Shown here one piece after another: positions 6,894 through 45,643 of a stretch of 64,000 nucleotides of DNA. Every line of letters starts with the position of its first letter. Position 1 is the first letter of the stretch. The position numbers and the translations under genes are program-made. The DNA lies in the NCBI GenBank assembly GCA_964607165.1, contig CAZSIT010000002.1, positions 46,063 to 110,062 of the forward strand, in the 5' to 3' direction. The DNA comes from an uncultured Ignavibacteria bacterium. GTDB taxonomy: Bacteria > Zixibacteria > MSB-5A5 > DSPP01. Under the pieces are notes generated by a model. That model was given only the letters and a program-made list of their open reading frames with translations, had not been told where the DNA came from and ran no database searches.

Positions 6894-8298
6894 CTCCTCC
6901 TCCTGCGTTCTGGCCTTGTTTAGTCGCCTCTTCCAGCTTTTTCAGGCGGGCCTCTATTTCGGCCCGCTCGGCCCGTATCTGGGCCAGTTCTTCATCAAGG
7001 CGGGCCTGATTGGCGGCGATAGAGGCAGCGCGCTCCGCTTCCACATTGAACGCTCCCGATACCTGGGCATCTTCATTCGGATGTTGCGGGCTGGGGAAGG
7101 CAAAACCTCCATACGCCGTCGGGAAATAAAGAACGGTGATCTTAGCCAATCCAGCCGTTACTGCCCCGTTAAAAGGGACCTGGGACATAAGCAGAGTATA
7201 GGTAAAGGGACCCGCTGCCGGTATGGGCCGCGTGATTATTCTCACTTGGGTCTGGTCCGAAAACCCATCGGCGTCACCGGCATCCCAGCTCCAGGTTGCC
7301 ATTATGGGACCATTTTCAGTCAGTGCGCACGGTAAGGCATTGTTGGGGGCAGCGAGAGCAACGGAAAACTGCGCCTCACAGATTATTACGGCAAAGCCGG
7401 CCGCCGGGGCCACCAGCGTGATGCCAGCAAAAACTGGCCCAAATCCGCCTGGGACGGGAACACCTAACGGTCCAGCCGGACTGGCAACAAGCCCCGGTTC
7501 GTCAAACGATTCGATGGAAGAAATGGAACCTCCCGGAACCACCACGGCGCCGTTGCTGCTCGCATCGGCATCTATGCTGACGGTTACCGCATTGACGTCG
7601 TTTGTCATCGAAAGCAAAGAGCCGCCACCAGTCACCCCACCCTGCAAGCTGATTCCGGGGCTGCCGTTATCTTTTTTAAGCAGGAGGGTTCCTCCTGCAC
7701 CAATAACATCTCCGGCTAAGTCCACCGTTAAAACGTTACCGGCTGTATTATCCCTAAGCCAGATCTCTCCATAAAGCGTTCCACCCATCTCGACGTTCCG
7801 CTTTCCATCGGCACCAATGACATAAAGGTTGTTATTGGCTGCATCAGTCTTTATGGCTAGGGTTTCAGGAGCAAATGTGCTTCTGACCTCCAGACCGTTC
7901 GCCACGCGGCTATACGGTGCGCTGATTAACTGGGTGCGGGGACTTATGATGTTAAGATCCACTTCGACTTCCAAATAAACCGAGTCGTTGTTTATAAATA
8001 CATCTGTCGGTATGGGGTCAAGGATGGGGTCAACCGAACCCAATTGATGGGTAAACAAGCCGCCCGCATCGGGGGTAATGCTCTTGGTTTCATCCCAGAG
8101 AAGCCCTCCCGCCGCTGGCAGCGTGTAAAGACGGAAGATAAAAGTATGCGGCGAGCCACCCAGAGGATTGCCCAAAGCATCGGTCAGCTTCCCCTGAAAG
8201 TTGACCAGGTTGGGAACGGACGACACGTTCGCCGCCTGGGTGAATCCAACCAACAACGCAGCGGTCAAAACCACTGCCAAAAGAAAAATGCGTTTCAT
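6883..8298 (-). CDS. secreted Gly/Ala/Thr-rich protein A1 with conserved N-terminal 'NFQGKLTDxLGNPL' module and C-terminal coiled coil
   Basis: 471 aa; signal peptide; motif 'VNFQGKLTDALGNPL...FRLYTLPAAGG..LW' shared with A2 (9072..10478); C-terminal heptad-like 'LDEELAQIRAERAEIEARLKKLEE'; GGAGG RBS. Confidence 0.65.
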   Translation of the reverse strand: MKRIFLLAVVLTAALLVGFTQAANVSSVPNLVNFQGKLTDALGNPLGGSPHTFIFRLYTLPAAGGLLWDETKSITPDAGGLFTHQLGSVDPILDPIPTDVFINNDSVYLEVEVDLNIISPRTQLISAPYSRVANGLEVRSTFAPETLAIKTDAANNNLYVIGADGKRNVEMGGTLYGEIWLRDNTAGNVLTVDLAGDVIGAGGTLLLKKDNGSPGISLQGGVTGGGSLLSMTNDVNAVTVSIDADASSNGAVVVPGGSISSIESFDEPGLVASPAGPLGVPVPGGFGPVFAGITLVAPAAGFAVIICEAQFSVALAAPNNALPCALTENGPIMATWSWDAGDADGFSDQTQVRIITRPIPAAGPFTYTLLMSQVPFNGAVTAGLAKITVLYFPTAYGGFAFPSPQHPNEDAQVSGAFNVEAERAASIAANQARLDEELAQIRAERAEIEARLKKLEEATKQGQNAGGGDDN

Positions 8299-28318: not shown

Positions 28319-28380
28319 TTTCTTGTAGGGGCACAACATGTTGTGCCCTTCCCCAATCGAATTCGTATATTCCCTCCGTT

Positions 28381-28453
28381 TGGGGCGTAGCCAAGCTGGT
28401 AAGGCACGGGACTTTGGATCCCGCACGCCCAGGTTCGAATCCTGGCGCCCCAG
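28381..28453 (+). tRNA. tRNA-Gln (anticodon TTG)
   Basis: TGGGGCGTAGCCAAGCTGGTAAGGCACGGGACTTTGGATCCCG...GGTTCGAATCCTGGCGCCCCAG; closely parallels bacterial tRNA-Gln (5' U1, D-loop AGCTGGTAAGG, anticodon loop CUUUGGA); CCA not encoded. Confidence 0.8.
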
Positions 28454-28461
28454 TTAAAACA

Positions 28462-32998: not shown

Positions 32999-34171
32999 AT
33001 GAAATCTATATTCTTAAGAACCGAATTTAACCGTCGTTTCCCTGATCCTCTAAACAAGTCCGACCAAGATGAGCCCACAAGCATCGAGCACTATATTTTA
33101 CTTTGCAGAGCTGTAGATATACCGCCAGGTATTCCGACGGCTCCAAATCCAAGGGAACAAGACACAGATAAAACAATCTACCAGGAAGTCAAAAAAAGCC
33201 TTCTGAGCGAAGCCGATCCTACTTTTCATCTTAAGAACAAGGGGATTACAATTATCGCTCACAAGGTGGACTATAGCAACCATAAAGATGGTTTAGAAGT
33301 TTTCTTCAATGAAGACGATGGTATAGTCGATGGTGCCCACACCTATACAATCATAGTCGACAACAAGGATGAGTGCCCGCACAATCAATTTGTTAAACTG
33401 GAAATATTGACAGCCATTCCGAGGTCCTTTGTCGAACCCATTGCGCAGGGTCTAAATACTGCTGTGCAGGTACAAACTATGAGTCTGGCCAATCTTGGCA
33501 AAAGGTTCGAATGGATCAAAGAAATCTTGAATAAAACACCATACGCTTCAGAAATTGCCTACAAAGAAAACGAGGACGGTGAATTTACCATTAGAGATAT
33601 CATCAGCTTAATGACTCTTTTTAATATTGAGTCATATCCTGATGGTTCTACCCATCCTAAGGTTGCTTATGTTAGCAAAGCGAAAGCATTGGAAGATTAT
33701 TTAAAAAGCCAAAATTCATTTGAAAAATTGTCGCTGATACTAAAGGACATCTTAGAACTTCATGATTATGTCCATTTAAAAGGACGGGGGCTCTATAACG
33801 AAAAATATAAAGGGAAAGGTGGAAGGTTGGCATTCTACCAAACTCGGAAGAAAGGATATAGGCTCGTATTCACAAGAAAGGAAACACCAAGCATGCTGTA
33901 TGACGGTGCACTTTATCCCATTTTGGGTGCATTCAGATACCTCGTGGGACAAAAACCCGGCAACGGCCATTTTTCTTGGAAGGTCGGCTCTTTTGAGGAG
34001 GTCAAAAAAATATTTGACAAGGTTGGAGCTGACATGATTAACTCAACTAAAGGCAAAAGCGATAGCACTGGCAGAAATCCAAATGCTATCGGCAAAGATG
34101 ATGGCCATTGGGAAAATCTGTACAAAACTGTTGCCCTTGCTTACTTTGAAAATAACAGAGCTAAAAACTAA
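32999..34171 (+). CDS. hypothetical 390-aa protein in AT-rich islet (possible abortive-infection/defence-type gene; no confident family)
   Basis: Low-GC gene flanked by high-GC core genes, own strong promoter and terminator; weak resemblance of 'GIVDGAHTYTI' to AIPR-type motifs is not sufficient for assignment. Confidence 0.3.
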   Translation: MKSIFLRTEFNRRFPDPLNKSDQDEPTSIEHYILLCRAVDIPPGIPTAPNPREQDTDKTIYQEVKKSLLSEADPTFHLKNKGITIIAHKVDYSNHKDGLEVFFNEDDGIVDGAHTYTIIVDNKDECPHNQFVKLEILTAIPRSFVEPIAQGLNTAVQVQTMSLANLGKRFEWIKEILNKTPYASEIAYKENEDGEFTIRDIISLMTLFNIESYPDGSTHPKVAYVSKAKALEDYLKSQNSFEKLSLILKDILELHDYVHLKGRGLYNEKYKGKGGRLAFYQTRKKGYRLVFTRKETPSMLYDGALYPILGAFRYLVGQKPGNGHFSWKVGSFEEVKKIFDKVGADMINSTKGKSDSTGRNPNAIGKDDGHWENLYKTVALAYFENNRAKN

Positions 34172-35622: not shown

Positions 35623-37851
35623 ATGAGCACTCATTTAACTGTAGAGGAAATGGTAAAAAAGATTAAAGAAGCCCTTGCGCAGGCCGGGTCGCATCCGCCC
35701 CGCGTGCGGGAGTTAGCTCGGAAGTTGTCAATTCCGGAAACCCAGTATCACCAATTCCGGCGTTTACTGAAAGAGATGATGCGCAATGGCGATTTGGCCA
35801 AGGGCCGGGGCGGTAAATTAGCTCTGTCAGAAAGGCAGGGCCGGATTACTGGCATTTTTACCCCCGCTCGCGCCGGGTTCGGTTTCGTCAAACCGGAAGA
35901 TGGCTCTGAGGATATTTACATTTCGCGCGAGCGGATTGCTGGAATTCTGCTTCCCGGCGATAAAGTCGAAGTTACTTTGCTTCGGAAAGGGTGGAAGGAC
36001 TTAAAGCGCGAAGGGGAAGTGATTAGGGTTTTAGAGCGGCAGACCAACCAGCTGGTTGGCACCTTCCATTCCATTCACTCAGACGCTTCGTTTACGCTGC
36101 GCTCAACGCAAGCGGAACGAGCCAACCGTGCCAACTACGTGATACCGGACGGCTTGGGGGAACGCTGGGAAGTTTTCATCCCGCAGGAAAAGACACACAA
36201 AGCGCAGGCGGGTCAGAAAGTGCTGGTACAGCTTCTCCCGCAAAAACCGGGCGTTTGGGGCCTGGAAGGAGAAATCGCCGAGGTTCTGGGAGATGCCGGT
36301 AACTCCCAAGCTATAATTCAAGGATTGGTTTACACCTATCGAATTTCGGTCGATTTTCCACACGAGGTTGAAAAAGAGCTGACCAGCCTGCCTGCAAAAG
36401 TGGCCGCTTCCGAAATCAAAAAACGCTGGGACTTTCGCAAGAAAATATGCTTTACCATTGACCCGATTGACGCCAAAGACCACGACGACGCCGTCACTTT
36501 GGAAAAACTGCCGGACAAAAATTGGCTTTTGGGAGTGCACATCGCCGACGTTTCCCACTACGTGCGCGAGGGTTCGGCCATCGACAAAGAAGCGGTCAAA
36601 CGCGGCAACTCGGTTTATCTCCCCGGACGAGTGATTCCAATGCTGCCGCACGCGCTCTCGTCCAATCTTTGCTCGCTTCTGCCGGAAAAAGTGCGCCTGA
36701 CTTACTCCTGTATGATGGAGCTTTCGCCCGATGGGCAGGTGAAAAAGTACGAAGTCGGCCGCTCGGTCATCCATTCCGCCGCCAAGTTGAACTACGAAGA
36801 GGTGCAGGAGGCGTTCGACGGCGGCGCGGCGCGCAAGAAATTGTCGAAATTTCTGGAGCCGCTGGAGGATATGCATCAGTTATCCAAAATTCTTTTGCAA
36901 AATAGGATGAAAAAAGGGAGTTTGGATTTCGATTTACCGGAGGATGAAATAATTTTGGACGCTGCAGGAAAAGTCGTCGACCTCAAACGCTCCGTGCGGC
37001 TTGATTCGCACCGGCTGATTGAAGAGTTTATGCTCCTGGCCAATCAAACAGTCGCCCGCTTTACGACGGCCTACAACTTGCCGGTTTTATACCGCGTCCA
37101 CGCCCCGCCGGATGAGGAAAAAATCGAGGCCTTCTTTTCGATTTTGAACGAACTGGGGTACAAATTTTCGCACAAGGGAGAAATCACCCCCCTGCGGCTT
37201 TCCAAAGTTCTTTCGCACATCGCCGGCAAACCGGAAGAGGAGCTGATTAACGAAATTCTTTTGCGCTCCTTGAAAAAAGCGATCTATCAGGATGAAAATA
37301 TCGGCCATTTCGGTTTGGCCTTTGACCGTTATTTGCATTTCACCTCTCCCATTCGGCGCTATCCTGATTTGCTCGTGCACCGGATTTTGCACGAATACCA
37401 ATCCGGCGGCCTCACCGCTAACCGTTATCAAACCATGCGCAAGCAGGCCGTGCATTTGGGGCAGCATTGCTCGGCCACAGAGCGCACCGCCAACGAGCTG
37501 GAACGAGAGGCGGTGAAAGTCAAACAGCTGGAGTTTATGGAAGACAAAGTCGGTGAGCATTACAAAGGCGCGGTCTCAGGCGTCACTAACTTCGGCGTTT
37601 TCGTCCGCTTGGGTCAGATGGGGGTGGAAGGAATGATTCGCCTGCGGGATTTGACCGACGACTACTACATTCTGGACGAGCGGGGGCATCGCTTAATCGG
37701 CCGAAAAACCAAAAGGAAAATTCATCTGGGCGACCCGATTACGGTCTTCGTGGTGCGGGTAGATAGGGAAGCCGGAAGAATCGAATTGGTTCCCGACTGG
37801 GGGAAGCCAAAAGATGAAAACCGGTATGCCAAAAAAAGGCAATTGAAATGA
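35623..37851 (+). CDS. rnr: ribonuclease R
   Basis: 742 aa; N-terminal HTH, cold-shock/OB, RNB catalytic domain, C-terminal S1 domain. Confidence 0.85.
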   Translation: MSTHLTVEEMVKKIKEALAQAGSHPPRVRELARKLSIPETQYHQFRRLLKEMMRNGDLAKGRGGKLALSERQGRITGIFTPARAGFGFVKPEDGSEDIYISRERIAGILLPGDKVEVTLLRKGWKDLKREGEVIRVLERQTNQLVGTFHSIHSDASFTLRSTQAERANRANYVIPDGLGERWEVFIPQEKTHKAQAGQKVLVQLLPQKPGVWGLEGEIAEVLGDAGNSQAIIQGLVYTYRISVDFPHEVEKELTSLPAKVAASEIKKRWDFRKKICFTIDPIDAKDHDDAVTLEKLPDKNWLLGVHIADVSHYVREGSAIDKEAVKRGNSVYLPGRVIPMLPHALSSNLCSLLPEKVRLTYSCMMELSPDGQVKKYEVGRSVIHSAAKLNYEEVQEAFDGGAARKKLSKFLEPLEDMHQLSKILLQNRMKKGSLDFDLPEDEIILDAAGKVVDLKRSVRLDSHRLIEEFMLLANQTVARFTTAYNLPVLYRVHAPPDEEKIEAFFSILNELGYKFSHKGEITPLRLSKVLSHIAGKPEEELINEILLRSLKKAIYQDENIGHFGLAFDRYLHFTSPIRRYPDLLVHRILHEYQSGGLTANRYQTMRKQAVHLGQHCSATERTANELEREAVKVKQLEFMEDKVGEHYKGAVSGVTNFGVFVRLGQMGVEGMIRLRDLTDDYYILDERGHRLIGRKTKRKIHLGDPITVFVVRVDREAGRIELVPDWGKPKDENRYAKKRQLK

Positions 37852-39329
37852 AATTCCTGATTGTATCGCCGACATCCGAACTCTGCGATAAACTAACCGC
37901 CGCCGCTCACCCATCCGAATGGGAATTTGTCTTTGCTTTTAGAGCGGCCGAAGCGCTGGGGGCTTTAAGGTCGGAAAAATTTGCGGCGGTGATATTCGAC
38001 GCCGCCGTTCCCGATTTGGATCCGCCGCGGCTGATGAAGAAAATTCTGCAAAAAGAGCCGGGCATAATACTTGTCGCAGTCGCCCCGGCCCAGCAGCTTT
38101 CCCTTTTTCAGCAGGGGCTCTTCTTTCAGTCCGTCGAAGCATTTCCCAAAGAAGGGAGCGGCGAAGAATTAGTAGCCCTCTTGGAAGAGTCGCTCAAAAT
38201 CCAATCGGTTTTAGAAAAGGCCGGCATCGTCGGCAAATCCCGCGCGCTGAAAAAAGTTGCCCTCGAAATTTTGGCCGTCGGCCCGACCGATTTGACCGTT
38301 TTAATCAGCGGCGAGAGCGGCACCGGCAAGGAATTGGTGGCAAAGGCAATCGCTGAAAATTCCCCGCGCGCAAGTAAGCCGTTTTTAGCCTTCAACTGCG
38401 GCGCTTTTGCCGAGGGGGTTTTGGAATCGGAACTCTTCGGCCACGAGCGCGGCGCTTTCACCGGCGCGGTAGCGCAGAAAAAGGGAGTGTTCGAGCTTGC
38501 TTCCGGCGGTACGATATTTCTGGACGAAATCGGCGAAATCTCCGCCGCCACGCAGGTCAAGTTGTTGCGCGTACTTGAAGAAAAGGCCTTCTTCCGCGTC
38601 GGCGGCAAGGAGCAGATTACCGTGGATGTACGGGTCCTTGCCGCCACCAACCGGGATTTGTCCGCCGCCGTCGCCGAAGGAAAATTTCGTTCCGATTTGT
38701 ATTACCGGCTCGGCGTGGTGAAAATCGAGCTGCCTCCGCTGCGGGAACGTCCCGAAGACATTTCGCTTCTAATTTTCCACTTCTTGAATCAACTGAAAGC
38801 GCAAAATCCAAATTTGAAAACCGAAGTTTCCGAAGGAGCGTTGGAAGAGCTTTCGCGCGCGCTGTGGCAGGGAAACGTGCGTGAGTTAAAAAACTTCATC
38901 GAAAGCCGGGCTTTGCTTTCCCCTTCGCGTACTATCACCGCCGAAGAGGTGCGGGAGCATCTGGCCCGCGCCAGTGCCGCCGACCGCAAGTTGCCGGTGA
39001 CGACCGGTAAGACGGTGGAGACCGCCGAGCGGGAGCTTATCTTTCAGGCCTTAGTCCGGCTTTCGCAGGAAGTCCGGGAATTGAAAGAGTTGTTTTTGGC
39101 GCGCGGCTCCGCCCCGGCGGAATGGCGCTTCGACCGGGGAGGCGAAGTTTTGCCGGGGAAGGAAGTTACCCCGGGAACGCAATCACTGGAAAGGATGGAA
39201 AAAGAAGTTATCGAGCGCGCTTTGCGCGAGGTCGGCGGCAACCGCAAAAAAGCCGCCGAAGTTTTAGGCATCGGCGAACGCACCCTCTACCGTAAAATCG
39301 ACCAGTATGGGTTGAGGAAAAATCGATAG
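37848..39329 (+). CDS. sigma-54-dependent Fis-family transcriptional activator (receiver-like N-domain, AAA+ core, C-terminal HTH)
   Basis: Walker A 'GESGTGKE', 'ESELFGHERGAFTGA' GAFTGA motif, C-terminal 'AAEVLGIGERTLYRKIDQYGL'. Confidence 0.85.
   Translation: MKFLIVSPTSELCDKLTAAAHPSEWEFVFAFRAAEALGALRSEKFAAVIFDAAVPDLDPPRLMKKILQKEPGIILVAVAPAQQLSLFQQGLFFQSVEAFPKEGSGEELVALLEESLKIQSVLEKAGIVGKSRALKKVALEILAVGPTDLTVLISGESGTGKELVAKAIAENSPRASKPFLAFNCGAFAEGVLESELFGHERGAFTGAVAQKKGVFELASGGTIFLDEIGEISAATQVKLLRVLEEKAFFRVGGKEQITVDVRVLAATNRDLSAAVAEGKFRSDLYYRLGVVKIELPPLRERPEDISLLIFHFLNQLKAQNPNLKTEVSEGALEELSRALWQGNVRELKNFIESRALLSPSRTITAEEVREHLARASAADRKLPVTTGKTVETAERELIFQALVRLSQEVRELKELFLARGSAPAEWRFDRGGEVLPGKEVTPGTQSLERMEKEVIERALREVGGNRKKAAEVLGIGERTLYRKIDQYGLRKNR
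39264..39320 (+). repeat. direct repeat copy 1 (3' end of sigma-54 activator gene)
   Basis: ttaggcatcggcgaacgcaccctctaccgtaaaatcgaccagtatgggttgaggaaa; copy 2 at 39559..39624 differs by 2 substitutions plus a 9-nt insertion. Confidence 0.75.
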
Positions 39330-39330
39330 T

Positions 39331-39633
39331 ATGAAATCGAATACTATTCGGAAGAATAAAAGCGGAACGGCCCGAGCCAAGGAACATTCCGGCTTGCTTC
39401 CTTTTACCTGCCTTTTCAAAAAAGAGAAAGGCGGCTATGTTGTCCGCTGCGTGGAATTGGACATCACCTCGCAGGGCGATACCTTGAAACAGGCCAAGGA
39501 AAACATCAGAGAAGCCATAAATCTGTATTTGGAATGTTACAAACCTCCGGCCAAAAGTTTGGGCATCGGCCCGCCGCAGGCGGGCACCCTCTACCGCAAA
39601 ATCGACCAGTATGGGTTGAGGAAGGGAAGATAA
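39331..39633 (+). CDS. HicB-like (UPF0150) antitoxin-fold protein whose last 18 codons duplicate the C-terminal HTH tail of the upstream sigma-54 activator
   Basis: 'YVVRCVELDITSQGDTLKQAKENIREAINLYLE' matches the HicB/UPF0150 core; C-terminus 'LGIGPPQAGTLYRKIDQYGLRKGR' encoded by repeat copy 2; no hicA-like ORF adjacent. Confidence 0.55.
   Translation: MKSNTIRKNKSGTARAKEHSGLLPFTCLFKKEKGGYVVRCVELDITSQGDTLKQAKENIREAINLYLECYKPPAKSLGIGPPQAGTLYRKIDQYGLRKGR
39559..39624 (+). repeat. direct repeat copy 2
   Basis: ttgggcatcggcccgccgcaggcgggcaccctctaccgcaaaatcgaccagtatgggttgaggaag. Confidence 0.75.
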
Positions 39634-39640
39634 AAAAGCT

Positions 39641-40495
39641 ATGGATAAAATTACAAAAATTGAGGCAATTGAAAGAATCGAGGAGTTAATTCAGGAGGTC
39701 GATGGGTTCGAGGATAAACTCAAAGGCTTAGACGTGTCGGTATTAAACTTGGGGCCTTGGCAGAAAGATGTAGAAAAGGCTCTAAAGCTTATATTTCCTG
39801 ACAAAGCTGACCACATTGAGAAATTCAAAAAGATCAAGTTTGAACCGGTACCCACGGCAGGAGGATACATTCCAATTTTGGAGATAACCCGAAGGAGGGA
39901 GGCCTACCAAACCGACTTAAAACGAGCGCGTCTATTTCTTAAGTCAAGGATTGAAGAGATAAAGGAATATTGGAAGAATGAAAACGTTTCTGATTCTGTT
40001 GGTTCAAAAGCCTTGGCAAAACCAAGCGAAACGAGAATAGTGGGAAACAAAATCTTTATTGTTCATGGCCATGATGAAAGATTAAAGAATCAACTCGAGA
40101 TATTTCTTACCGAAATTAAATTGGAGTCCGTTGTGTTACATCGAAAAGCCGATGAGGGTCTCACTATAATCGAGAAAATTGAAAAACATAGCGACGTTGG
40201 ATATGCCTTCATTCTCCTGACACCTGATGATATTGGCTATCCGATTTCGGAAGATAGCAAACCTGACCAGCAGAGAGCAAAAGAAAAAAGAGCGCGCCAG
40301 AATGTAATTTTTGAATTTGGTTATTTTGTAGGCAAGCTTGGACGGAACAGAGTTTGCTGTTTGTACAAAAAAGGTGTTGCGCTTCCAGCTGATATTGTAG
40401 GCATGATTTATAAGCAAGTCAGCGAAAATGTAGAAGAAGTGGCTTTTTCAATACAAAAAGACCTAAAAACTGCTGGCTATTCAGTAAATATATAA
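39641..40495 (+). CDS. TIR-like domain protein (PF10137 / COG4271 'predicted nucleotide-binding protein containing TIR-like domain', as in CBASS Cap12 / Pycsar PycTIR effectors) with N-terminal helical domain
   Basis: AT-rich gene; C-terminal half 'IFIVHGHDERLKNQLEIFL...TIIEKIEKHSDVGYAFILLTPDDIG...RARQNVIFEFGYFVGKLGRNRVCCLYKKGVALPADIVG' matches the remembered PF10137 consensus blocks (hGhD, TiIEKfE, LLTPDD, RARQNVifE.GyF, LGR.RV, PSD..G). Confidence 0.6.
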   Translation: MDKITKIEAIERIEELIQEVDGFEDKLKGLDVSVLNLGPWQKDVEKALKLIFPDKADHIEKFKKIKFEPVPTAGGYIPILEITRRREAYQTDLKRARLFLKSRIEEIKEYWKNENVSDSVGSKALAKPSETRIVGNKIFIVHGHDERLKNQLEIFLTEIKLESVVLHRKADEGLTIIEKIEKHSDVGYAFILLTPDDIGYPISEDSKPDQQRAKEKRARQNVIFEFGYFVGKLGRNRVCCLYKKGVALPADIVGMIYKQVSENVEEVAFSIQKDLKTAGYSVNI

Positions 40496-40499
40496 ATCT

Positions 40500-42035
40500 G
40501 TGAAGCTACAAATCCTTTTCTTTTTAGGCATAGTTTTCATTTCAAACAATGCTTTTCCTCAATCGGGCTCCCTTCTCTCCGTTGACGAACTTTCAGAAAA
40601 GCTCCGCAGCGGGGAGATTTCGATAGAGACTTTTGAGGAGGCGCTTTTGGCGGCGGAGAGAAGCGGGGCAAAGCTTTCTTTTGTGGCGCAGGAGGAGCTA
40701 AAAATTGACTCGGTTTCGGAATTTCAGCTGCCGCTTTATTTCAATTTGGGCAGCCAGTATTCGCTAATGCCGGAAAGGGCAAGCCGCAACTATTTTACCT
40801 TTAAAAGCCCGGCCAAAAACTCTTTCGGCTTTTTTGCCGAGGGAGTGAAAACGCCTACGAGCAATGAGCTTACCTTCCGCCGCCGGGGTTTATGGTTTGC
40901 GCAAGCGGGCTGGGAGGCCAGAGCTGGAAATTTTGATTACGAATGGGGCGACGGGCTGATTTTGGGAAGGGGGTTTTACCCGCTTTCGTCAGCTTCCAAG
41001 CCGGATGAATTTGGAAACTCGATTGCCTTTCCCGATTTCAGCCGCTACAACGGAATTTTGGGACGGAGAAACGCCAAAAACTTTTCGGCGGAGGCGTTCG
41101 GCTCTTTTGACCGGAGTGAATCGCATCAAGATTTCTTGGGAGCGGGAGGCTTTAGTTATTTTCGGCCGAATTTTCAGTTTGGGTTACTAGCCGGAGGCGA
41201 AGAACTGAAGAATCGGGAAAACCGAACCCAAAAATCGTTCCAGTTTGCCTCTCTGCAGGGGCGTTACAAACGCAAAGAAGCCGAACTTTCAGGTGAAGTG
41301 GGGTATCTGGACGAAAAACCTGCCGGGTATATTCTTTCCGCAATGGCTAAGCACGGCTTTTGGGCTTCGCAAATTTCCTTTTGGAACTACAACTCCAATC
41401 TGTTTATCCACTCCGGCGGGCCGTCGTTTGGGGATTACCGGACGCAGGAAATCGAAGATGTTGATTTTTCCTACCGCACACCGCGCAGCCAAACCAAAGG
41501 ATTTATCGCAAGCGAAAGCTGGCGGCCGAGTGCACGCTGGAGTCTTGATTCCAAAGTCGGCTTTTGGGGGCCTTTGGGAGAAAAGTTGAATCGGAACCGG
41601 TTTAACTTTTCCGGCCGCTATCGGCCTCTCCAAAAATTCAGTGTCTCCGGAAGCTGGACTAAAAGCGATTTTTCCGACACACTGGAAGCTCGCCAAAGAT
41701 GGCAGGGAAGAATTACGACCGATTACGAGTGTAGCAAACAGTTGGATTTGCGGCTTTCGGGCGAAATATTGAAAGGCTTTTTAGGTTTTCGAGGTAAGAC
41801 GCTTGCCGCAAGGTTGCACTGGAGCCAGAAACGGACGGCTTTTAGCTTCTGGGGAAAAATCGGGGAACGAACCGATAGAGCAACCGAGCGATTTTATTAT
41901 ATCTTCTATATCGAAGAAAGAATGAAAATTTTCCCGGAGCTTGAGTTTATGTCGCGACTATCGAAGGATTTTAACCGCTCGCTGTCAAACAAGGCATCTA
42001 CATTTCTAAGAGTTGAGCTGGGGCATCCTTTCTAA
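40500..42035 (+). CDS. hypothetical outer-membrane beta-barrel-like secreted protein
   Basis: 511 aa; signal peptide; beta-rich, ends in ...GHPF (C-terminal Phe typical of OMPs); GTG start; stop/start overlap with next gene. Confidence 0.4.
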   Translation: MKLQILFFLGIVFISNNAFPQSGSLLSVDELSEKLRSGEISIETFEEALLAAERSGAKLSFVAQEELKIDSVSEFQLPLYFNLGSQYSLMPERASRNYFTFKSPAKNSFGFFAEGVKTPTSNELTFRRRGLWFAQAGWEARAGNFDYEWGDGLILGRGFYPLSSASKPDEFGNSIAFPDFSRYNGILGRRNAKNFSAEAFGSFDRSESHQDFLGAGGFSYFRPNFQFGLLAGGEELKNRENRTQKSFQFASLQGRYKRKEAELSGEVGYLDEKPAGYILSAMAKHGFWASQISFWNYNSNLFIHSGGPSFGDYRTQEIEDVDFSYRTPRSQTKGFIASESWRPSARWSLDSKVGFWGPLGEKLNRNRFNFSGRYRPLQKFSVSGSWTKSDFSDTLEARQRWQGRITTDYECSKQLDLRLSGEILKGFLGFRGKTLAARLHWSQKRTAFSFWGKIGERTDRATERFYYIFYIEERMKIFPELEFMSRLSKDFNRSLSNKASTFLRVELGHPF

Positions 42036-43720
42036 TGCGAAAAGCCTCAATTACACTCTTAGTCATTTTCTTATCTGTTCCTGCTTTTGCACAGGCACCA
42101 AAGGTTGTGGTGAACGAAGTTTTGGCAAACGAGCCGGGGGCCTTCACCAGTTTGGAGTGGATTGAGCTTTACAATGCCGATTTAAACGCGGTTCCGTTGA
42201 CGGATTTTTCCATCATTGAAGGCGCCGACACTTCGCGTCTTGATTCCGGTTCGGTGGTACTGCCGGCAGGCGGTTTTGCAATAGTTTCCCGCAAGCCGGT
42301 TGCGGAAACTGAAACGGAAAATTCTTTTGAAAAGCACTGGGGCAATAACTCCGGTTTCTGGGGAGATGATCCCACAGAGAATTATCCCTTATTGAAAGGG
42401 AAGTTTTCTCTAAGTAATGGCTCCGGTCGAATTCTTCTACTCTATAAAAACTCGCCTGTGGATTCTTTAATCTGGTCTTTCGATGCAGGCGATGGCAAAT
42501 CGTGGGAGCGGATTTCCGTTGCGATGCCAGCCACGGGTGGGAATTTAAGTATTTCGACTGCTACATCCGGCTCAACGCCGGGGAAAATCAACTCGGTCGC
42601 GCCAGTATCAAACGATTTAGCTGTTGAGCAATTTGCCGTGCAAAATCCCTCCGGCAACTTCATGATAATTTCTGGCTCCGTTAAAAATGTGGGACTGGAC
42701 ACAACCACAGCTCGATATCTGTTTTTCTCCTCTGGAATTTTAGGTGATACAACTTACACAATCGTTCAAAAGCTCGATTCAATTTTGGTCTCATCTTTAG
42801 CACCGCAAGCATTTGACAACTTTACCATTGCCCTGACTCTACCAAATGGCTACCGGCGTTTGATTCTTTCTTTGCCGCCTGACGGAAGAAATGAAAATAA
42901 CTTTGCGGCGTTGACCGTTCGAGTTGGAACTTCTTCGCCAACTTTACTCATCAATGAATTTCTCCCCGACCCGGAAAACCCTCTGGAATCAGAATGGATT
43001 GAATTGTATAACGCCGCCGACACGGCCGTGCAGCTTTTTGGCTGGAAAATTGGAGATGCAAAAAGTCAGGTTCAGATAAGCATCGATTCGATTTCCGTAC
43101 CACCGGGGAATTTTGTTGTTGTGGTACAGAATAAAGTGAGCTTTCAGAGTTTTTACCCAAATATTTCCGTCCAAGTATTTGAGCCTTCAAGCTGGCCCTC
43201 CCTAAATAACGATGGCGATACCATAAAGCTGGTAAGTCCGTTTGGGTTGGTAGAGGATTCTATTGGGTTCAATAAAGGATATGGCAACAACGTATCGTGG
43301 GAGAAAAAAGACCCGGCGCTTCCATCCGATAATCCGGCCAACTGGTGGCGCTCGGTGGATGCCAAAGGAGCAACACCTGGAGGGCCGAATTCCATCGCCG
43401 CAGCTTATTCGGAAAACTTACAAGTCGATATTTCTCCCAACCCATTTTCGCCCGATGGCGATGGTTTTGATGATGAGGTCTCAATAAACTTTACCCTGCC
43501 TTTTCAAGCCAACTTAACGGCACGCATTTACGACGTGAACGGCCGGGAAGTGAAAACGCTTTTGGACAATTCACCGACTGTCACGGGAAAGATTACTTGG
43601 GATGGTAAGGGAAATAACGGAAAAACCTTGCGCTCCGGTATTTACGTTCTATTCATGGAAACATCTGGCTCTGCCCGCTTGACTAAAAAGGGGACTCTTG
43701 TTCTGGTTAAGAAAAAGTAG
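42035..43720 (+). CDS. secreted protein with two lamin-tail domains (LTD) and a C-terminal FlgD-Ig-like / T9SS-type sorting domain
   Basis: 'VVNEVLANEPG...EWIELYN' and 'LINEFLPDPENPLESEWIELYN' LTD signatures; C-terminus 'ISPNPFSPDGDGFDDEVSINFTL...RIYDVNGREVKTL...WDGKGNNGK...SGIYVLFMET' matches FlgD Ig-like/T9SS C-terminal domains. Confidence 0.65.
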   Translation: MRKASITLLVIFLSVPAFAQAPKVVVNEVLANEPGAFTSLEWIELYNADLNAVPLTDFSIIEGADTSRLDSGSVVLPAGGFAIVSRKPVAETETENSFEKHWGNNSGFWGDDPTENYPLLKGKFSLSNGSGRILLLYKNSPVDSLIWSFDAGDGKSWERISVAMPATGGNLSISTATSGSTPGKINSVAPVSNDLAVEQFAVQNPSGNFMIISGSVKNVGLDTTTARYLFFSSGILGDTTYTIVQKLDSILVSSLAPQAFDNFTIALTLPNGYRRLILSLPPDGRNENNFAALTVRVGTSSPTLLINEFLPDPENPLESEWIELYNAADTAVQLFGWKIGDAKSQVQISIDSISVPPGNFVVVVQNKVSFQSFYPNISVQVFEPSSWPSLNNDGDTIKLVSPFGLVEDSIGFNKGYGNNVSWEKKDPALPSDNPANWWRSVDAKGATPGGPNSIAAAYSENLQVDISPNPFSPDGDGFDDEVSINFTLPFQANLTARIYDVNGREVKTLLDNSPTVTGKITWDGKGNNGKTLRSGIYVLFMETSGSARLTKKGTLVLVKKK

Positions 43721-44504
43721 CTGGATTGTTCTTTTTCTTTTTTCAACCGCCGAAGCCAGCTTTGAGCGGGCCGGTTTTAGCCCAGCCGCAGCTGCCTTGG
43801 GTGGAATATATTTTCACCCTGAACCGGAAGCAGTTTTCTACAATCCATCCCTTTTGAATCTGCTTTCAAAAAGAGAAGTTGGCTTTTGCCATCAGCGGTT
43901 ATTCGGATTGGACGAGCTTTCCTCCAATCAAGGCGCCGCCGCTTTTCGGGTGCGGAATATTGTCCTCGGAGTTGGTTTTTATTCTTTCGGCAAAAACGAT
44001 TACTACCTTGAAAACGGCATCTGGCTCTCTGCGGCTTATCCGCTTTCAACGTTTATCCTCGGCGGTTCATTGAAAGGGCTTCTGGTTTCTTACGGCGGAA
44101 ATTATTCTTCCGACAAAGCCGTTGCCGCTGATTTGTCTTTGCTTGCCGAGGTTAAACGAGTTCGTTTGGGAGCCGTGGTTCAAAACATTCCATTTACGCC
44201 CGGCCAAAATAACTCTCCATTAGCTCCAGTTTTGCTCACTATCGGCGCTTCAGCTCAAGCGACTGAAAAAGTGGATTTGTTTGCAGGAGGAACAACACAG
44301 AAGGATGGAAAAGAGGGTATAAATCTTGGCCAGGAGTATCGCCCGGCACAATATCTGTCTTTGCGGGCCGGTTTTCGTACCGCTCCGGCGCGTTACAGCT
44401 TCGGCTTTGGAGCGCTTTACAAAGTTTTCGAATTTGACTACAGTTACACCAGCCACCCGGTGCTGGGGGGTGAAAATAGTTTTGGAGTGAGAATCAAATG
44501 GTAA
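43698..44504 (+). CDS. hypothetical outer-membrane beta-barrel protein (PorP/PorQ-like?)
   Basis: 268 aa; signal peptide; alternating beta pattern; ends ...VRIKW; operonic with LTD/T9SS-CTD gene. Confidence 0.35.
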   Translation: MFWLRKSSWIVLFLFSTAEASFERAGFSPAAAALGGIYFHPEPEAVFYNPSLLNLLSKREVGFCHQRLFGLDELSSNQGAAAFRVRNIVLGVGFYSFGKNDYYLENGIWLSAAYPLSTFILGGSLKGLLVSYGGNYSSDKAVAADLSLLAEVKRVRLGAVVQNIPFTPGQNNSPLAPVLLTIGASAQATEKVDLFAGGTTQKDGKEGINLGQEYRPAQYLSLRAGFRTAPARYSFGFGALYKVFEFDYSYTSHPVLGGENSFGVRIKW

Positions 44505-45643
44505 AACCTTTAATATTCCCCGAAGAAAAAATCCTGGCTTCTTATGCCGCGCGGTCATCGGAAAGCCGCGGGAGAGTTCATCCTGAAACGGAGCACGCCT
44601 ACCGCTCTGCCTTCCAGCGCGACCGGGAACGCATCGTCCATTCCACCGCTTTCCGGCGGTTGGAATATAAAACGCAAGTGTTCGTGAATCAGGAAGGGGA
44701 CTTATACCGCACCCGGTTGACGCATACCATCGAAGTTTCCCAAATCGCCCGCTCGGCGGCGCGGGCGATGGGGTTAAACGAGGATTTGGCGGAAGCGATT
44801 GCCTTGGTGCACGATTTGGGGCATACGCCTTTCGGTCACACCGGCGAGGAGATTCTGGACGAATTGACTAAGGATGTGGGCGGTTTTTCCCACAACCGTC
44901 AGTCGTTGAGGGTAGTGGATTTTTTGGAACAAAAATACCCAAATTTCTCCGGGCTGAACTTAACCTACGAAGTACGCGAAGGAATCGTCAAGCACCAAAC
45001 CGCTACAAAGCTGCCAATACCCAAAGAGTTTCATCCTAATGAGCGGCCGACCTTGGAATCGGATTTGGTCGATTTGGCGGATGAAATTGCCTATAACTGT
45101 CATGACATTGACGATGGCTTGACCTCTGGAATCCTAACGCCAGAGCAGGTGCGAATACTTTCAATCTGGAAAAAGCTGGGGGCCTCCGCCGTCCGGAAAT
45201 TCAGGGATTTGCCCTTTGCCCGTCTGCAGAGCCAAATCGTGCGGGAGATGATAAATCGGGAAGTGAACGATTTGGTCACCACTACGCTTTCTCGCATTGA
45301 AAAACTGAAAATCAAAAGTCTAACGGACGTGCGCAAAGTTAAAGAAAGTCCGTTGGGTTTTTCCGCTGCACTAAAAAAAGAAAACGCCGAGTTGAAGAAA
45401 TTTTTAAACGAAAATTTTTACCGCCATCACCGGCTGGTGCGGATGGCGGACAAAGCCAAGCGGATTATCGCCGAGCTTTTTGGCGCCTATACGCGCAATC
45501 CCGATTTACTTCCCCCCACAAGCCGCGCACGCCTGAAAAGAGAACCACCCAAACGAGTGGTGGCCGATTACATCGCCGGAATGACCGACCGGTATGCGAT
45601 TTTAGAGTATCAAAGATTGTTCGACCCGGCGGAAAGGGTGTGA
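44498..45643 (+). CDS. dgt: dGTP triphosphohydrolase-like HD-domain protein
   Basis: 'RLTHTIEVSQIAR...HDLGHTPFGH' HD motif; C-terminal 'DYIAGMTDRYA'. Confidence 0.8.
   Translation: MVKPLIFPEEKILASYAARSSESRGRVHPETEHAYRSAFQRDRERIVHSTAFRRLEYKTQVFVNQEGDLYRTRLTHTIEVSQIARSAARAMGLNEDLAEAIALVHDLGHTPFGHTGEEILDELTKDVGGFSHNRQSLRVVDFLEQKYPNFSGLNLTYEVREGIVKHQTATKLPIPKEFHPNERPTLESDLVDLADEIAYNCHDIDDGLTSGILTPEQVRILSIWKKLGASAVRKFRDLPFARLQSQIVREMINREVNDLVTTTLSRIEKLKIKSLTDVRKVKESPLGFSAALKKENAELKKFLNENFYRHHRLVRMADKAKRIIAELFGAYTRNPDLLPPTSRARLKREPPKRVVADYIAGMTDRYAILEYQRLFDPAERV

What the first reader, a model, noticed from the sequence alone, without database searches (positions are those of the whole stretch)
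39264..40495. HicB-like ORF inserted between 57-nt direct repeats of the sigma-54 activator 3' end, followed by an AT-rich TIR-like (Cap12/PycTIR-type) domain gene
The last ~57 nt of the NtrC-like gene (39264..39320, encoding ...LGIGERTLYRKIDQYGLRK) recur at 39559..39624 with 2 substitutions and a 9-nt insertion. The second copy now encodes the C-terminus of a 100-aa HicB/UPF0150-like protein, so a ~300-bp module appears to have inserted with target duplication and captured the HTH tail in frame. Immediately downstream is an AT-rich gene whose C-terminal half matches the PF10137/COG4271 TIR-like fold used by CBASS Cap12 and Pycsar PycTIR effectors, including the conserved Glu in 'NVIFEFGYF'. 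It carries an unfamiliar N-terminal coiled-coil/helical domain. No HicA toxin, cyclase or CD-NTase is adjacent. This is a candidate stand-alone or novel TIR-like defence/toxin module with an antitoxin-like partner.
Basis: partly seen in the sequence, partly recalled or inferred. Interest (0 to 1): 0.8.

Follow-up and report, generated by a model that had tools for sequence, protein, structure and literature searches.

The report
TIR-like defence gene in variable hotspot
The gap between a sigma-54 activator gene and its downstream operon in this Zixibacteria-like genome holds different foreign defence genes in each relative; here it holds a single-gene TIR-like candidate defence protein of a catalogued but untested family, plus the leftover front half of a HicB antitoxin gene fused to a duplicated end of the activator gene.

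Summary
A 40-nt stretch of the activator's 3' end recurs 304 nt downstream with one mismatch, and two further assemblies show the same arrangement.

The 284-aa AT-rich gene matches PF10137 (E 5.5e-35). It also matches the PADLOC candidate family PDC-S35 over its full length (E 7e-73), so its N-terminal domain is not unfamiliar. That helical module also occurs fused to HEPN, restriction-nuclease, kinase and canonical TIR domains.

Eight related loci show the activator/p511 junction is a hypervariable hotspot. Relatives carry an Mrr-like nuclease, a type II R-M pair, hicBA plus unknown genes, the TIR-like gene alone (L174), the HicB chimera alone (L089), or nothing (L004, Ignavibacteria).

The HicB-like ORF is the 5' three-quarters of a hicB whose intact form sits next to a canonical hicA in L091. 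It is joined at a GCCGAA microhomology to a second copy of the activator tail. That copy runs colinearly into the TIR gene, as in L174.

The two genes are therefore independent cargo, not a toxin–antitoxin pair. The repeat is best read as a recombination scar (inferred), not a transposition target duplication. The chimera is under purifying selection (dN/dS 0.13).

Verdict: new member of known kinds, moderate interest.

The parts
37848..39329 (+). Intact sigma-54-dependent activator (NtrC/AtoC-like, 493 aa) with a complete Fis-type HTH. It forms the conserved left flank of the hotspot.
   Evidence: PF00158 E 9e-68; PF02954 HTH_8 residues 446-487, E 8e-16. Orthologues at 73-94% aa identity in L174, L090, L092, L091, L003, L093 and (last 33 aa only) L089; 49% in L004.
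39255..39319 (+). Repeat copy 1: the functional 3' end of the activator gene (…AAEVLGIGERTLYRKIDQYGLRK).
39331..39633 (+). Chimeric 100-aa ORF. It consists of hicB-derived codons 1-~74 fused in frame to a copy of the activator's last ~26 codons. It starts 1 nt after the activator stop.
   Evidence: ORF. PHROG 497 HicB-like E 8.5e-6. Same chimera in L089 (P0122, 66% id). Native 92-aa hicB followed by hicA in L091. dN/dS for the core, window vs L089, is 0.13 (Fisher p 8e-7); for the tail 0.20 (p 0.009).
39547..39556 (+). Junction between hicB-derived and activator-derived sequence, at a GCCGAA-type microhomology.
   Evidence: In the three-way alignment, window, L089 and L091 are homologous up to …TTACAAACCTCCGGCCRAA. 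L091 then continues with native hicB, while window and L089 switch to the activator tail.
39550..39623 (+). Repeat copy 2: a displaced activator 3' end. Its right 40 nt (39584-39623) are 98% identical to copy 1 and 100% identical to the L091 activator tail. It runs colinearly into the TIR-like gene, as the activator tail does in L174.
39569..39585 (+). Perfect 17-nt palindrome (7-bp GC stem, 3-nt loop) inside copy 2. It results from an in-frame 6->15 nt replacement that is absent from copy 1, L089 and all relatives.
   Evidence: unique in the window; 0 expected.
39641..40495 (+). 284-aa TIR-like candidate defence gene of the PDC-S35 family. N-terminal four-helix module aa 1-121 (39641-40003). 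Disordered linker aa 117-130. PF10137 TIR-like domain aa 137-277 (40049-40471). Predicted catalytic Glu225 at 40313-40315.
   Evidence: PF10137 E 5.5e-35. PADLOC PDC-S35 E 7e-73 over residues 11-283. AF2 pLDDT 85.9. Foldseek top hits are the Cap12/TIR-STING structures 9lmq and 7un8, E 5e-7 to 5e-5. E225 invariant. GC 39%.
40500..42035 (+). p511, a conserved signal-peptide protein with no Pfam match. It is the first gene of the conserved right flank (p511, LTD/T9SS protein p561, p268). Homology among relatives resumes only at ~40548, inside the signal-peptide coding region.

Best explanation
The activator->p511 junction is a core-gene-flanked hotspot into which this Zixibacteria-like clade repeatedly receives low-GC defence or toxin-antitoxin cargo. 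The window carries two separate cargo items.

(1) The TIR-like gene (39641-40495). It is a stand-alone, single-polypeptide abortive-infection-type candidate of the PDC-S35 family. An N-terminal four-helix sensor/regulator module is shared with proteins carrying HEPN, REase, kinase or canonical TIR effectors. It is linked to a Cap12/PycTIR-type TIR-like domain.

Inferred mechanism: the N-module holds the TIR-like domain inactive until an infection cue allows oligomerisation. Glu225 then hydrolyses NAD+, stopping growth or killing the infected cell.

(2) The HicB chimera (39331-39633). It is what remains of a hicBA module that once sat directly after the activator. An illegitimate join at a GCCGAA microhomology linked hicB codon ~74 to codon ~468 of a second activator copy. 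This removed the hicB 3' end and hicA. It also left the activator tail duplicated.

The most economical route is recombination with DNA from a relative, with one homologous anchor in a flanking core gene and one illegitimate end (homology-facilitated illegitimate recombination). The downstream copy is the activator tail that preceded the TIR cargo, as in L174.

The chimera has been kept as an ORF under purifying selection in two lineages. It probably still works as an orphan HicB-type antitoxin or small regulator, independently of the TIR-like gene.

Shown: anatomy, family memberships, hotspot variability, independence of the two genes, the junction, and purifying selection. Inferred: NADase/abortive-infection activity, the trigger, the recombination pathway, and the order of events.
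For: Hotspot:
- L174: activator->TIR-like->p511 start.
- L090: activator->Mrr_cat protein->p511.
- L092: activator->type II MTase (PADLOC E 3e-149) + 352-aa gene->p511.
- L091: activator->313 aa->tail remnant->hicB->hicA->380 aa->p511.
- L089: activator->HicB chimera->~200 nt->p511.
- L004: activator->p540 homologue, 2 nt apart.
- Cargo GC is 37-41% for the defence-type genes and 46-50% for the hicB(A) sequences, against 55-59% for the activator flank.

TIR-like gene:
- PF10137 E 5.5e-35 and PDC-S35 E 7e-73 over the full length.
- Aligned to the R-x-N-V-x-F-E-F-G motif of solved Cap12 structures.
- Foldseek top 10 hits are all TIR-STING.
- E225 and 26 other residues are invariant.
- Homologues are stand-alone, beside NACHT, methylase and helicase genes, and are present in 134 viral contigs.
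- The N-module is fused to PF10137 (24 of 55), Ymh-HEPN (3), AbiJ_NTD4 (2), DpnII/MboI REase, a protein kinase and TIR_2.
- CAP12/Pycsar-clade TIRs are oligomerisation-activated NADases with a catalytic Glu (10.64898/2026.04.30.722052, read).

HicB chimera:
- Junction alignment.
- Native hicB-hicA in L091.
- Same junction in L089.
- dN/dS 0.13.
- The 9-nt change keeps the frame.
- Copy 2->TIR is colinear with the L174 tail->TIR.
- L091 has a second, independent tail duplication with a different boundary.
- No integrase, transposase or tRNA lies at the site.
Against: - No experiment exists for PDC-S35. It is a guilt-by-embedding prediction (10.1101/2024.01.29.577857).
- NADase activity is extrapolated from Cap12/TirC at about 22% identity.
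- DNPH1, a nucleotide N-glycosidase, is also a weak fold match (rank 11), so the substrate could differ.
- The recombination route cannot be observed. The order of events is unresolved: hicB' inserted into an activator-TIR locus, or TIR cargo recombined into an activator-hicBA locus.
- Window copies 1 and 2 are 97% identical, but the L089 copies only 68%. This requires extra gene conversion or a later cargo swap.
- The relatives are metagenomic contigs, and L089 may be chimeric downstream.
- No promoter-like site was found upstream of either gene, so expression depends on read-through from the activator. That is untested.
- The AF2 model of the chimera was unusable (pLDDT 44.5).
Confidence: 0.7

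Rival explanations
1. Two-gene toxin-antitoxin-like defence module. The HicB-like protein is the dedicated antitoxin or regulator of the TIR-like toxin, and both arrived together.
For: The genes are adjacent on the same strand with a 7-nt gap and no terminator between them. The HicB ORF is under purifying selection. CAP12/Pycsar-clade TIR NADases can be highly toxic when unregulated.
Against: L174 has the TIR-like gene without the HicB ORF. L089 has the HicB chimera without the TIR gene. The native partner of this hicB is a canonical hicA. There is no HicB relative within 3 kb of 86 homologous loci, nor in three further genomic contexts. PDC-S35 is modelled as a single-gene system. GC differs: 46% for the hicB part, 39% for TIR.
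Confidence: 0.07
2. Site-specific integration. The activator tail is an attB site for a tyrosine or serine recombinase. The repeats are attL/attR of a miniature or decayed integrative element, or of accreted cis-mobilisable elements.
For: Direct repeats of a gene's 3' end flanking foreign DNA are the classic signature of integrative elements. The pattern occurs twice (window/L089 and L091).
Against: No integrase lies in any of the eight loci or within 9 kb in the window. The left ends of the duplicated segment differ: about 75 nt before the stop in the window and about 40 nt in L091. The junction falls inside a truncated gene at a microhomology. L090, L092 and L174 have cargo with no second repeat.
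Confidence: 0.1
3. Transposition-type insertion of a ~300-bp mobile module with a long target-site duplication.
For: Relative to L174, the extra DNA is ~304 bp and is bounded by direct repeats.
Against: A duplication of 57-66 nt is far longer than known transposase target duplications (general knowledge). No terminal inverted repeats flank the ~300-bp insert. The module exists at only this one locus among 5.8 billion proteins. Its content is a truncated gene.
Confidence: 0.02
4. Orphaned effector. The TIR-like protein is a signal-activated effector of a CBASS, Pycsar or Thoeris-like system whose cyclase is encoded elsewhere.
For: PF10137 is the TIR of Cap12 and PycTIR.
Against: It scores far below the Cap12 equivalog cutoffs (39 bits against a cutoff of 450). 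PycTIR gives only E 1e-5 over a partial stretch. It has no STING or cNMP-binding domain; instead it has a helical module shared with Abi-type single-chain proteins. No cyclase lies within 9 kb here or beside homologues.
Confidence: 0.08
5. Assembly artefact. The duplicated tail comes from mis-joining strain variants.
For: L001 begins exactly at the start of copy 1, which suggests an assembly-graph branch there.
Against: Both the 223-kb source contig and the Logan contig L002 span both copies. A diverged relative (L089, 74% nt identity) has the same architecture.
Confidence: 0.02

Closest known systems
PADLOC phage-defence candidate PDC-S35 (single-gene candidate; Payne et al. 2024 preprint, 10.1101/2024.01.29.577857)
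   Same: Full-length match to the family HMMs (E 7e-73 to 1e-43 on five models), with the same two-domain layout of a helical N-module and a PF10137 domain.
   Different: It occurs in an uncultivated Zixibacteria-like lineage. It is a mosaic: the N-module is about 70% identical to the L174 protein, while the TIR half is 70-76% identical to a different, very conserved subfamily. The family itself is predicted by embedding in BREX, DISARM or type I R-M loci and was not tested.
Cap12 / TIR-STING (CBASS effector; PDB 7UN8, 9LMQ) and PycTIR (Pycsar effector; PDB 8JSJ)
   Same: Same TIR subfamily (PF10137). The R-x-N-V-x-F-E-F-G motif with the Glu is shared. These are the best structural matches.
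   Different: There is no STING or cyclic-nucleotide-binding sensor and no cyclase. Domain order is reversed relative to TIR-STING, with the TIR C-terminal. Identity is about 22%, and the scores are far below the NCBIfam Cap12 cutoffs.
AbiJ-NTD-type single-chain abortive-infection architectures (Anantharaman et al. 2013, PMC3710099)
   Same: A ~120-aa, mostly helical N-terminal module is combined with interchangeable effector domains (HEPN/Ymh, REase, S/T kinase, TIR). The fusion spectrum found here mirrors that described for AbiJ-NTD1.
   Different: No Pfam AbiJ_NTD model hits this protein. Identity with AbiJ-NTD1 was not tested by profile comparison.
HicAB type II toxin-antitoxin systems
   Same: The ORF's first ~74 codons are orthologous (73% aa) to a hicB that directly precedes a canonical hicA in L091.
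   Different: There is no hicA in the window. The native C-terminus is replaced by the recognition helix of a Fis-type HTH from the neighbouring activator. Pfam HicB scores are below threshold.
Core-gene-flanked defence hotspots (e.g. cDHS1/2 of Pseudomonas aeruginosa, PMC10250203)
   Same: Conserved core genes flank a slot that holds different defence systems in different strains.
   Different: The slot is very small, holding 1-4 genes. It sits inside an apparent operon, and its borders cut into the coding ends of both flanking genes.
Orphan immunity-gene arrays of Vibrio cholerae T6SS and Rhs/CDI loci, formed by effector displacement (PMC5361080)
   Same: Incoming modules displace the toxin gene but leave the protective gene. 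Duplicated fragments of the conserved upstream gene are left behind. Homology-facilitated illegitimate recombination was proposed there as the mechanism.
   Different: Here the retained gene is a truncated antitoxin of a TA pair, and the anchor is a transcription-factor gene rather than an effector or VgrG gene.

Membership tests
PF10137 CAP12/Pycsar-type TIR-like domain | Profile match above Pfam's gathering score | tested here: met
   120.4 bits against a cutoff of 24.7; E 5.5e-35; profile positions 1-118 of 119.
PF10137 CAP12/Pycsar-type TIR-like domain | TIR/flavodoxin-like fold closest to the solved Cap12 TIR | tested here: met
   AF2 pLDDT 85.9. Foldseek PDB top 10 hits are all TIR-STING (9lmq, 9lmr, 7un8), E 5e-7 to 9e-5, prob 1.00.
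PF10137 CAP12/Pycsar-type TIR-like domain | Conserved catalytic glutamate in the F-E-F-G motif | tested here: met
   E225 aligns with the Glu of NVVFEFG in the 9lmq and 7un8 chains and is invariant in 40 homologues. That this Glu is the catalytic residue comes from the literature.
PF10137 CAP12/Pycsar-type TIR-like domain | NAD+ glycohydrolase activity on oligomerisation | not testable with these tools
   Requires biochemistry.
PADLOC PDC-S35 | Full-length match to the family HMM, as a single-gene system | tested here: met
   PDLC05005 E 7e-73, residues 11-283 against profile positions 5-258 of 264. Homologues are stand-alone in varied contexts.
PADLOC PDC-S35 | Demonstrated anti-phage activity | not testable with these tools
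   The family is a prediction only. No paper in the searchable library mentions PDC-S35.
CBASS Cap12 (TIR-STING) equivalog | NCBIfam equivalog score at or above the cutoff, plus a STING domain and a neighbouring CD-NTase | tested here: not met
   39 and 34.5 bits against a cutoff of 450, matching only the FEFG region. No STING domain. No CD-NTase within 9 kb.
Pycsar PycTIR | Cyclic-nucleotide-binding domain plus a neighbouring pyrimidine cyclase | tested here: not met
   PADLOC PycTIR gives only E 1.3e-5 over residues 184-261. No cNMP-binding domain. No cyclase nearby.
HicB antitoxin (HicAB type II TA) | HicB N-terminal fold or profile match | tested here: inconclusive
   Pfam PF15919 E 0.016, 15.8 bits against a cutoff of 27. 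PHROG 497 HicB-like E 8.5e-6. No PDB sequence hit. AF2 model unusable, pLDDT 44.5.
HicB antitoxin (HicAB type II TA) | Adjacent cognate HicA toxin gene | tested here: not met
   No HicA in the 64-kb window (tblastn best E 0.21). The orthologous hicB in L091 does have an adjacent HicA (PF07927, E 2.6e-18). The window ORF is therefore a derived orphan.
Integrative element with att duplication | Recombinase gene, and identical core end points in independent insertions | tested here: not met
   No recombinase in any locus. Duplication boundaries differ between the window/L089 and L091.
Core-gene-flanked defence hotspot | The same flanking core genes with different defence cargo in related genomes | tested here: met
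   Six different occupancies plus one empty site among eight loci.
AbiJ-NTD1-like sensor module | Sequence or profile homology to AbiJ-NTD1 | not tested
   Only the fusion spectrum was compared. The Pfam copy used has no AbiJ-NTD1 model that hits.

The most novel reading that the evidence does not exclude
The HicB::Fis-helix chimera is not debris but a neofunctionalised small protein. It could be a DNA- or RNA-binding regulator, or a broad anti-HicA 'anti-addiction' factor, created by exon-shuffling-like capture of the activator's recognition helix.

Separately, the ~40-60-nt tail repeats that bracket it may act as recombinase-free handles. These would let relatives gain, lose or swap cassettes at this slot by plain homologous recombination. 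Recombination between copy 1 and copy 2 would precisely restore the L174 state.
Probability: 0.15. Interest if true: 0.55.

Novelty: new member of a known kind. Interest (0 to 1): 0.35.

Why it matters
It adds a clean natural example, from an uncultivated phylum, of how tiny defence cassettes are exchanged at a slot defined by two core genes. The recombination scars (a duplicated gene tail, a truncated antitoxin, a microhomology junction) are still legible at nucleotide resolution.

It also flags an untested but very widespread single-gene family: more than 6,500 homologues, with the TIR half about 70% identical across phyla, and also carried on viral contigs. Its sensor module is shared with HEPN, REase and kinase effectors. 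That makes the family a good target for finding what such modules sense.

It does not reveal a new kind of system. The proposed HicB-TIR partnership is not real.

Tried and rejected
1. HicB as partner of the TIR-like gene. Rejected by presence/absence in L174 and L089, and by a scan of 86 homologous loci with a HicB profile.

2. Remnant of a TIR gene in the ~200 nt that replace it in L089. Only non-significant blastx hits (E >= 0.18), so inconclusive.

3. Integrase/att or transposon origin. No recombinase, no terminal inverted repeats flanking the insert, and different boundaries.

4. Structured RNA or tRNA at the site. Rfam and ARAGORN found only tRNA-Gln 11 kb upstream.

5. Promoter and terminator scan of 38900-40800. 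Nothing upstream of either gene and no terminator.

6. The palindrome as a dispersed repeat (REP-like). It is unique in the window.

7. AF2 model of the 100-aa chimera from a 2-sequence alignment. pLDDT 44.5, not usable. A PDB sequence search with it found nothing.

8. Using the last three codons to decide which tail copy is 'resident'. KNR*, KGR*, KR* and KK* all occur as natural activator termini among relatives, so this is not informative.

9. Literature search for PDC-S35 and COG4271. No functional study was found in the searchable library.

10. L003, the closest named genome (Zixibacteria MAG PMV_8.32). The site is rearranged there, with convergent DUF58/MoxR genes, so it gives no empty site.

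Full report
**1. Observation**

The region reads as five tightly packed + strand genes:
- a sigma-54 activator (37848-39329);
- a 100-aa ORF (39331-39633);
- a 284-aa ORF (39641-40495);
- a 511-aa gene (40500-42035), called p511 here;
- a 561-aa LTD/T9SS-signal protein gene (42035-43720).

The repeat is real. Positions 39280-39319 and 39584-39623 are 40 nt with one mismatch, and 39255-39275 versus 39550-39570 are 81% identical. The 40-mer occurs twice, against 0 expected by chance.

Between the two homologous blocks, GAACGC in copy 1 is replaced by CCGCCGCAGGCGGGC in copy 2. The change is +9 nt and in frame. It creates a perfect 17-nt palindrome that is unique in the window.

The description is otherwise accurate.

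A Logan contig (L002, 100% identical) spans both copies and the TIR gene. A JGI contig (L001, 99.87%) runs from the start of copy 1 into p561. So this is not a one-assembly artefact.

The 284-aa gene has 39% GC, against 56% for the activator.

**2. The TIR-like gene**

Sequence and structure evidence:
- It matches PF10137 at E 5.5e-35.
- It matches the PADLOC candidate family PDC-S35 over residues 11-283 at E 7e-73. The N-terminal domain therefore belongs to a catalogued family.
- NCBIfam Cap12 equivalogs hit only the FEFG region, far below cutoff. PycTIR is a weak partial hit.
- An AF2 model (pLDDT 85.9) shows four N-terminal helices (6-29, 38-51, 56-63, 79-121), a disordered linker and an alpha/beta domain at 137-277.
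- The Foldseek PDB top ten hits are all TIR-STING/Cap12 structures.
- phmmer aligns RARQNVIFEFGYF to the NVVFEFG motif of the 9lmq and 7un8 chains.
- E225 and 26 other positions are invariant in 40 homologues.

Distribution and context:
- The family is large: at least 6,539 proteins at E <= 1e-5. The TIR half is about 70% identical across Firmicutes, Proteobacteria and others.
- It is carried on at least 134 viral contigs and matches PHROG 16442.
- In three sampled contexts the homologues are stand-alone genes. Their neighbours include a NACHT protein, a DNA methylase with reverse-transcriptase genes, and a large DEAD-helicase gene.

The N-module:
- A whole-library search with residues 1-130 found 54 representatives.
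- Of the 55 proteins scanned (these 54 plus the query protein itself), 24 carry PF10137. Others carry Ymh-type HEPN (3), AbiJ_NTD4 (2), a DpnII/MboI REase, a protein kinase or a canonical TIR_2.
- This fusion spectrum is the one described for the helical AbiJ-NTD modules, especially NTD1, which were proposed as sensors that restrain a suicidal effector (PMC3710099).

Mechanism by analogy. CAP12/Pycsar-clade TIRs are NADases activated by oligomerisation and depend on the conserved Glu (10.64898/2026.04.30.722052). I therefore infer a single-chain sensor-effector abortive-infection protein that depletes NAD+. This is inference only. PDC systems are predictions from genetic embedding and were not tested. 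No paper on PDC-S35 was found.

**3. The locus in relatives**

The closest named genome is a Zixibacteria MAG (L003; activator 81% identical), but the site is rearranged there.

An Ignavibacteria MAG (L004) keeps RNase R -> activator -> p511 homologue -> LTD protein -> p264. Only 2 nt separate the activator stop from the next start. This is the empty arrangement.

A degenerate DNA pattern for the activator tail, together with protein look-ups, retrieved closer relatives. Their content between the activator and p511 is listed below.

| Locus | Activator aa identity | Content between activator and p511 |
|---|---|---|
| L174 | 93.6% | A TIR-like gene directly after the activator; the probable p511 start overlaps the TIR stop |
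| L090 | 91.7% | A 391-aa Mrr_cat protein |
| L092 | 86% (over the 51 aa present) | A type II methyltransferase (PADLOC E 3e-149) plus a 352-aa gene, on the opposite strand |
| L091 | 83% | A 313-aa gene, a tail remnant, hicB (92 aa), hicA (PF07927, E 2.6e-18), a 380-aa gene and ~1 kb more |
| L089 | 94% (over the 33 aa present) | The same HicB chimera (97 aa), then ~200 nt with no TIR gene |

The defence-type cargo genes have 37-41% GC and the hicB(A) sequences 46-50%, against 55-59% for the activator flank. Homology resumes on the right only at about 40548, inside the p511 signal-peptide region. It ends on the left at …GAGGAA, three codons before the activator stop.

This is a small, always-occupied, core-gene-flanked defence hotspot of the kind described as cDHS in Pseudomonas (PMC10250203).

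**4. The HicB-like ORF and the repeat**

- Only two proteins among 5.8 billion resemble its first 76 residues: the protein itself and the L089 protein.
- The three-way DNA alignment shows window, L089 and L091 homologous up to …TTACAAACCTCCGGCCRAA. L091 then continues as native hicB, followed by hicA. Window and L089 switch to the activator tail.
- The native hicB (CCGGCCGAATTG) and the activator (GCCGCCGAAGTT) share GCCGAA at that point.
- The ORF is therefore the 5' three-quarters of a hicB that lost its 3' end and its toxin gene. The junction is shared by two lineages that are only 74% identical in DNA.
- Since that junction formed, the hicB core has evolved with dN/dS 0.13 (18 synonymous versus 13 non-synonymous changes; Fisher p 8e-7). 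The captured tail has dN/dS 0.20 (p 0.009). The 9-nt change keeps the frame. The chimera therefore looks like a maintained gene.
- Copy 2, the short spacer and the first ~335 nt of the TIR gene are colinear with the activator tail -> TIR gene of L174, at 75.5% identity over 396 nt. Copy 2 is therefore the activator tail that preceded the TIR cargo.
- L091 carries an independent partial tail copy (7652-7693) just after its 313-aa cargo gene, with a different left boundary.
- L090, L092 and L174 have no second copy.
- No recombinase, transposase or tRNA is present at the site.

The simplest reading has two parts. Cargo is normally swapped by homologous recombination in both flanking genes. Occasionally only one end is homologous and the other joins illegitimately. 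That leaves a duplicated tail and, here, an orphaned antitoxin gene. The same logic was proposed for orphan immunity arrays in Vibrio T6SS and Rhs loci (PMC5361080).

Which partner was resident cannot be decided from the data.

The 97% identity of the two window copies, against 68% in L089, implies later gene conversion or a more recent cargo swap. The palindrome may mark that tract's edge, but this is speculative.

**5. Independence of the two genes**

- L174 has the TIR gene without HicB', and L089 has HicB' without the TIR gene.
- 86 homologous TIR-like loci have no relative of this HicB within 3 kb.
- The hicB's native partner is hicA.
- PDC-S35 is modelled as a single-gene system.

The 'antitoxin-like partner' idea is therefore not supported.

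No HicA, cyclase or CD-NTase lies in the neighbourhood. No promoter-like site lies upstream of either gene, and there is no terminator-like site in the region. This suggests read-through transcription within the activator-p511 unit.

**6. Verdict**

The TIR-like gene is a new member of a known, untested candidate family. The locus is an ordinary defence hotspot that is unusually easy to read. The HicB::Fis-tail chimera under purifying selection is the one mildly surprising element.

Interest is 0.35. Novelty: new member of a known kind.

Noticed in passing
window 32999-34171 (+); wider segment 29268-35698: An AIPR abortive-infection protein (PF10592, E 2e-25) lies in a second variable segment. 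The window has 6.4 kb where the Zixibacteria MAG L003 has 1.3 kb. The segment starts shortly after tRNA-Gln (28380-28454). It may be another defence islet.
   Followed up: partly
window 44498-45643 (+): An HD-domain dGTPase-like protein matches the PADLOC dGTPase model at E 2.5e-99. It could be a housekeeping Dgt rather than a defence gene.
   Followed up: no
window 39641-40003 (aa 1-121 of the TIR-like protein); proteins P0123-P0175: The N-terminal four-helix module has no Pfam model. It recurs fused to PF10137, TIR_2, Ymh-HEPN, AbiJ_NTD4, a DpnII/MboI REase and a protein kinase. W40, F52, F62 and W111 are nearly invariant.
   Followed up: partly
window 39641-40495 vs L174 1134-1979: The TIR-like gene is a mosaic. 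Its N-module is about 70% identical to the L174 protein (DNA similarity stops near 39976). The TIR half is only about 40% identical to L174, but 70-76% identical to a subfamily spread across many phyla. This suggests an effector-domain swap at the linker.
   Followed up: partly
L091 7652-7693: This is a second, independent partial copy of the activator tail, directly after a 313-aa cargo gene and upstream of hicB-hicA. It shows the tail duplication is recurrent.
   Followed up: yes
L091 9513-10510: About 1 kb of normal-GC (51%) sequence lies between the 380-aa cargo gene and p511. It has no convincing ORF and no Rfam match above the gathering thresholds.
   Followed up: no
L089 800-1583: The p511 homologue breaks off after about 70 codons and an unrelated gene follows. 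This is either a rearrangement or a chimeric Logan contig.
   Followed up: no
L093 361-1539: In this relative the activator is followed by sequence homologous to window 44415-44840. The p511/p561/p268 cluster is therefore absent at that position.
   Followed up: no
L001 position 1 = window 39254: The JGI contig starts exactly where repeat copy 1 begins. This may be an assembly-graph branch caused by co-existing alleles with and without the hicB' insert.
   Followed up: no
window 39331-39393 (aa 1-21 of the chimera): The N-terminal ~20 residues of the HicB-type proteins are poorly conserved in sequence but strongly basic in all three orthologues. Their function is unknown.
   Followed up: no
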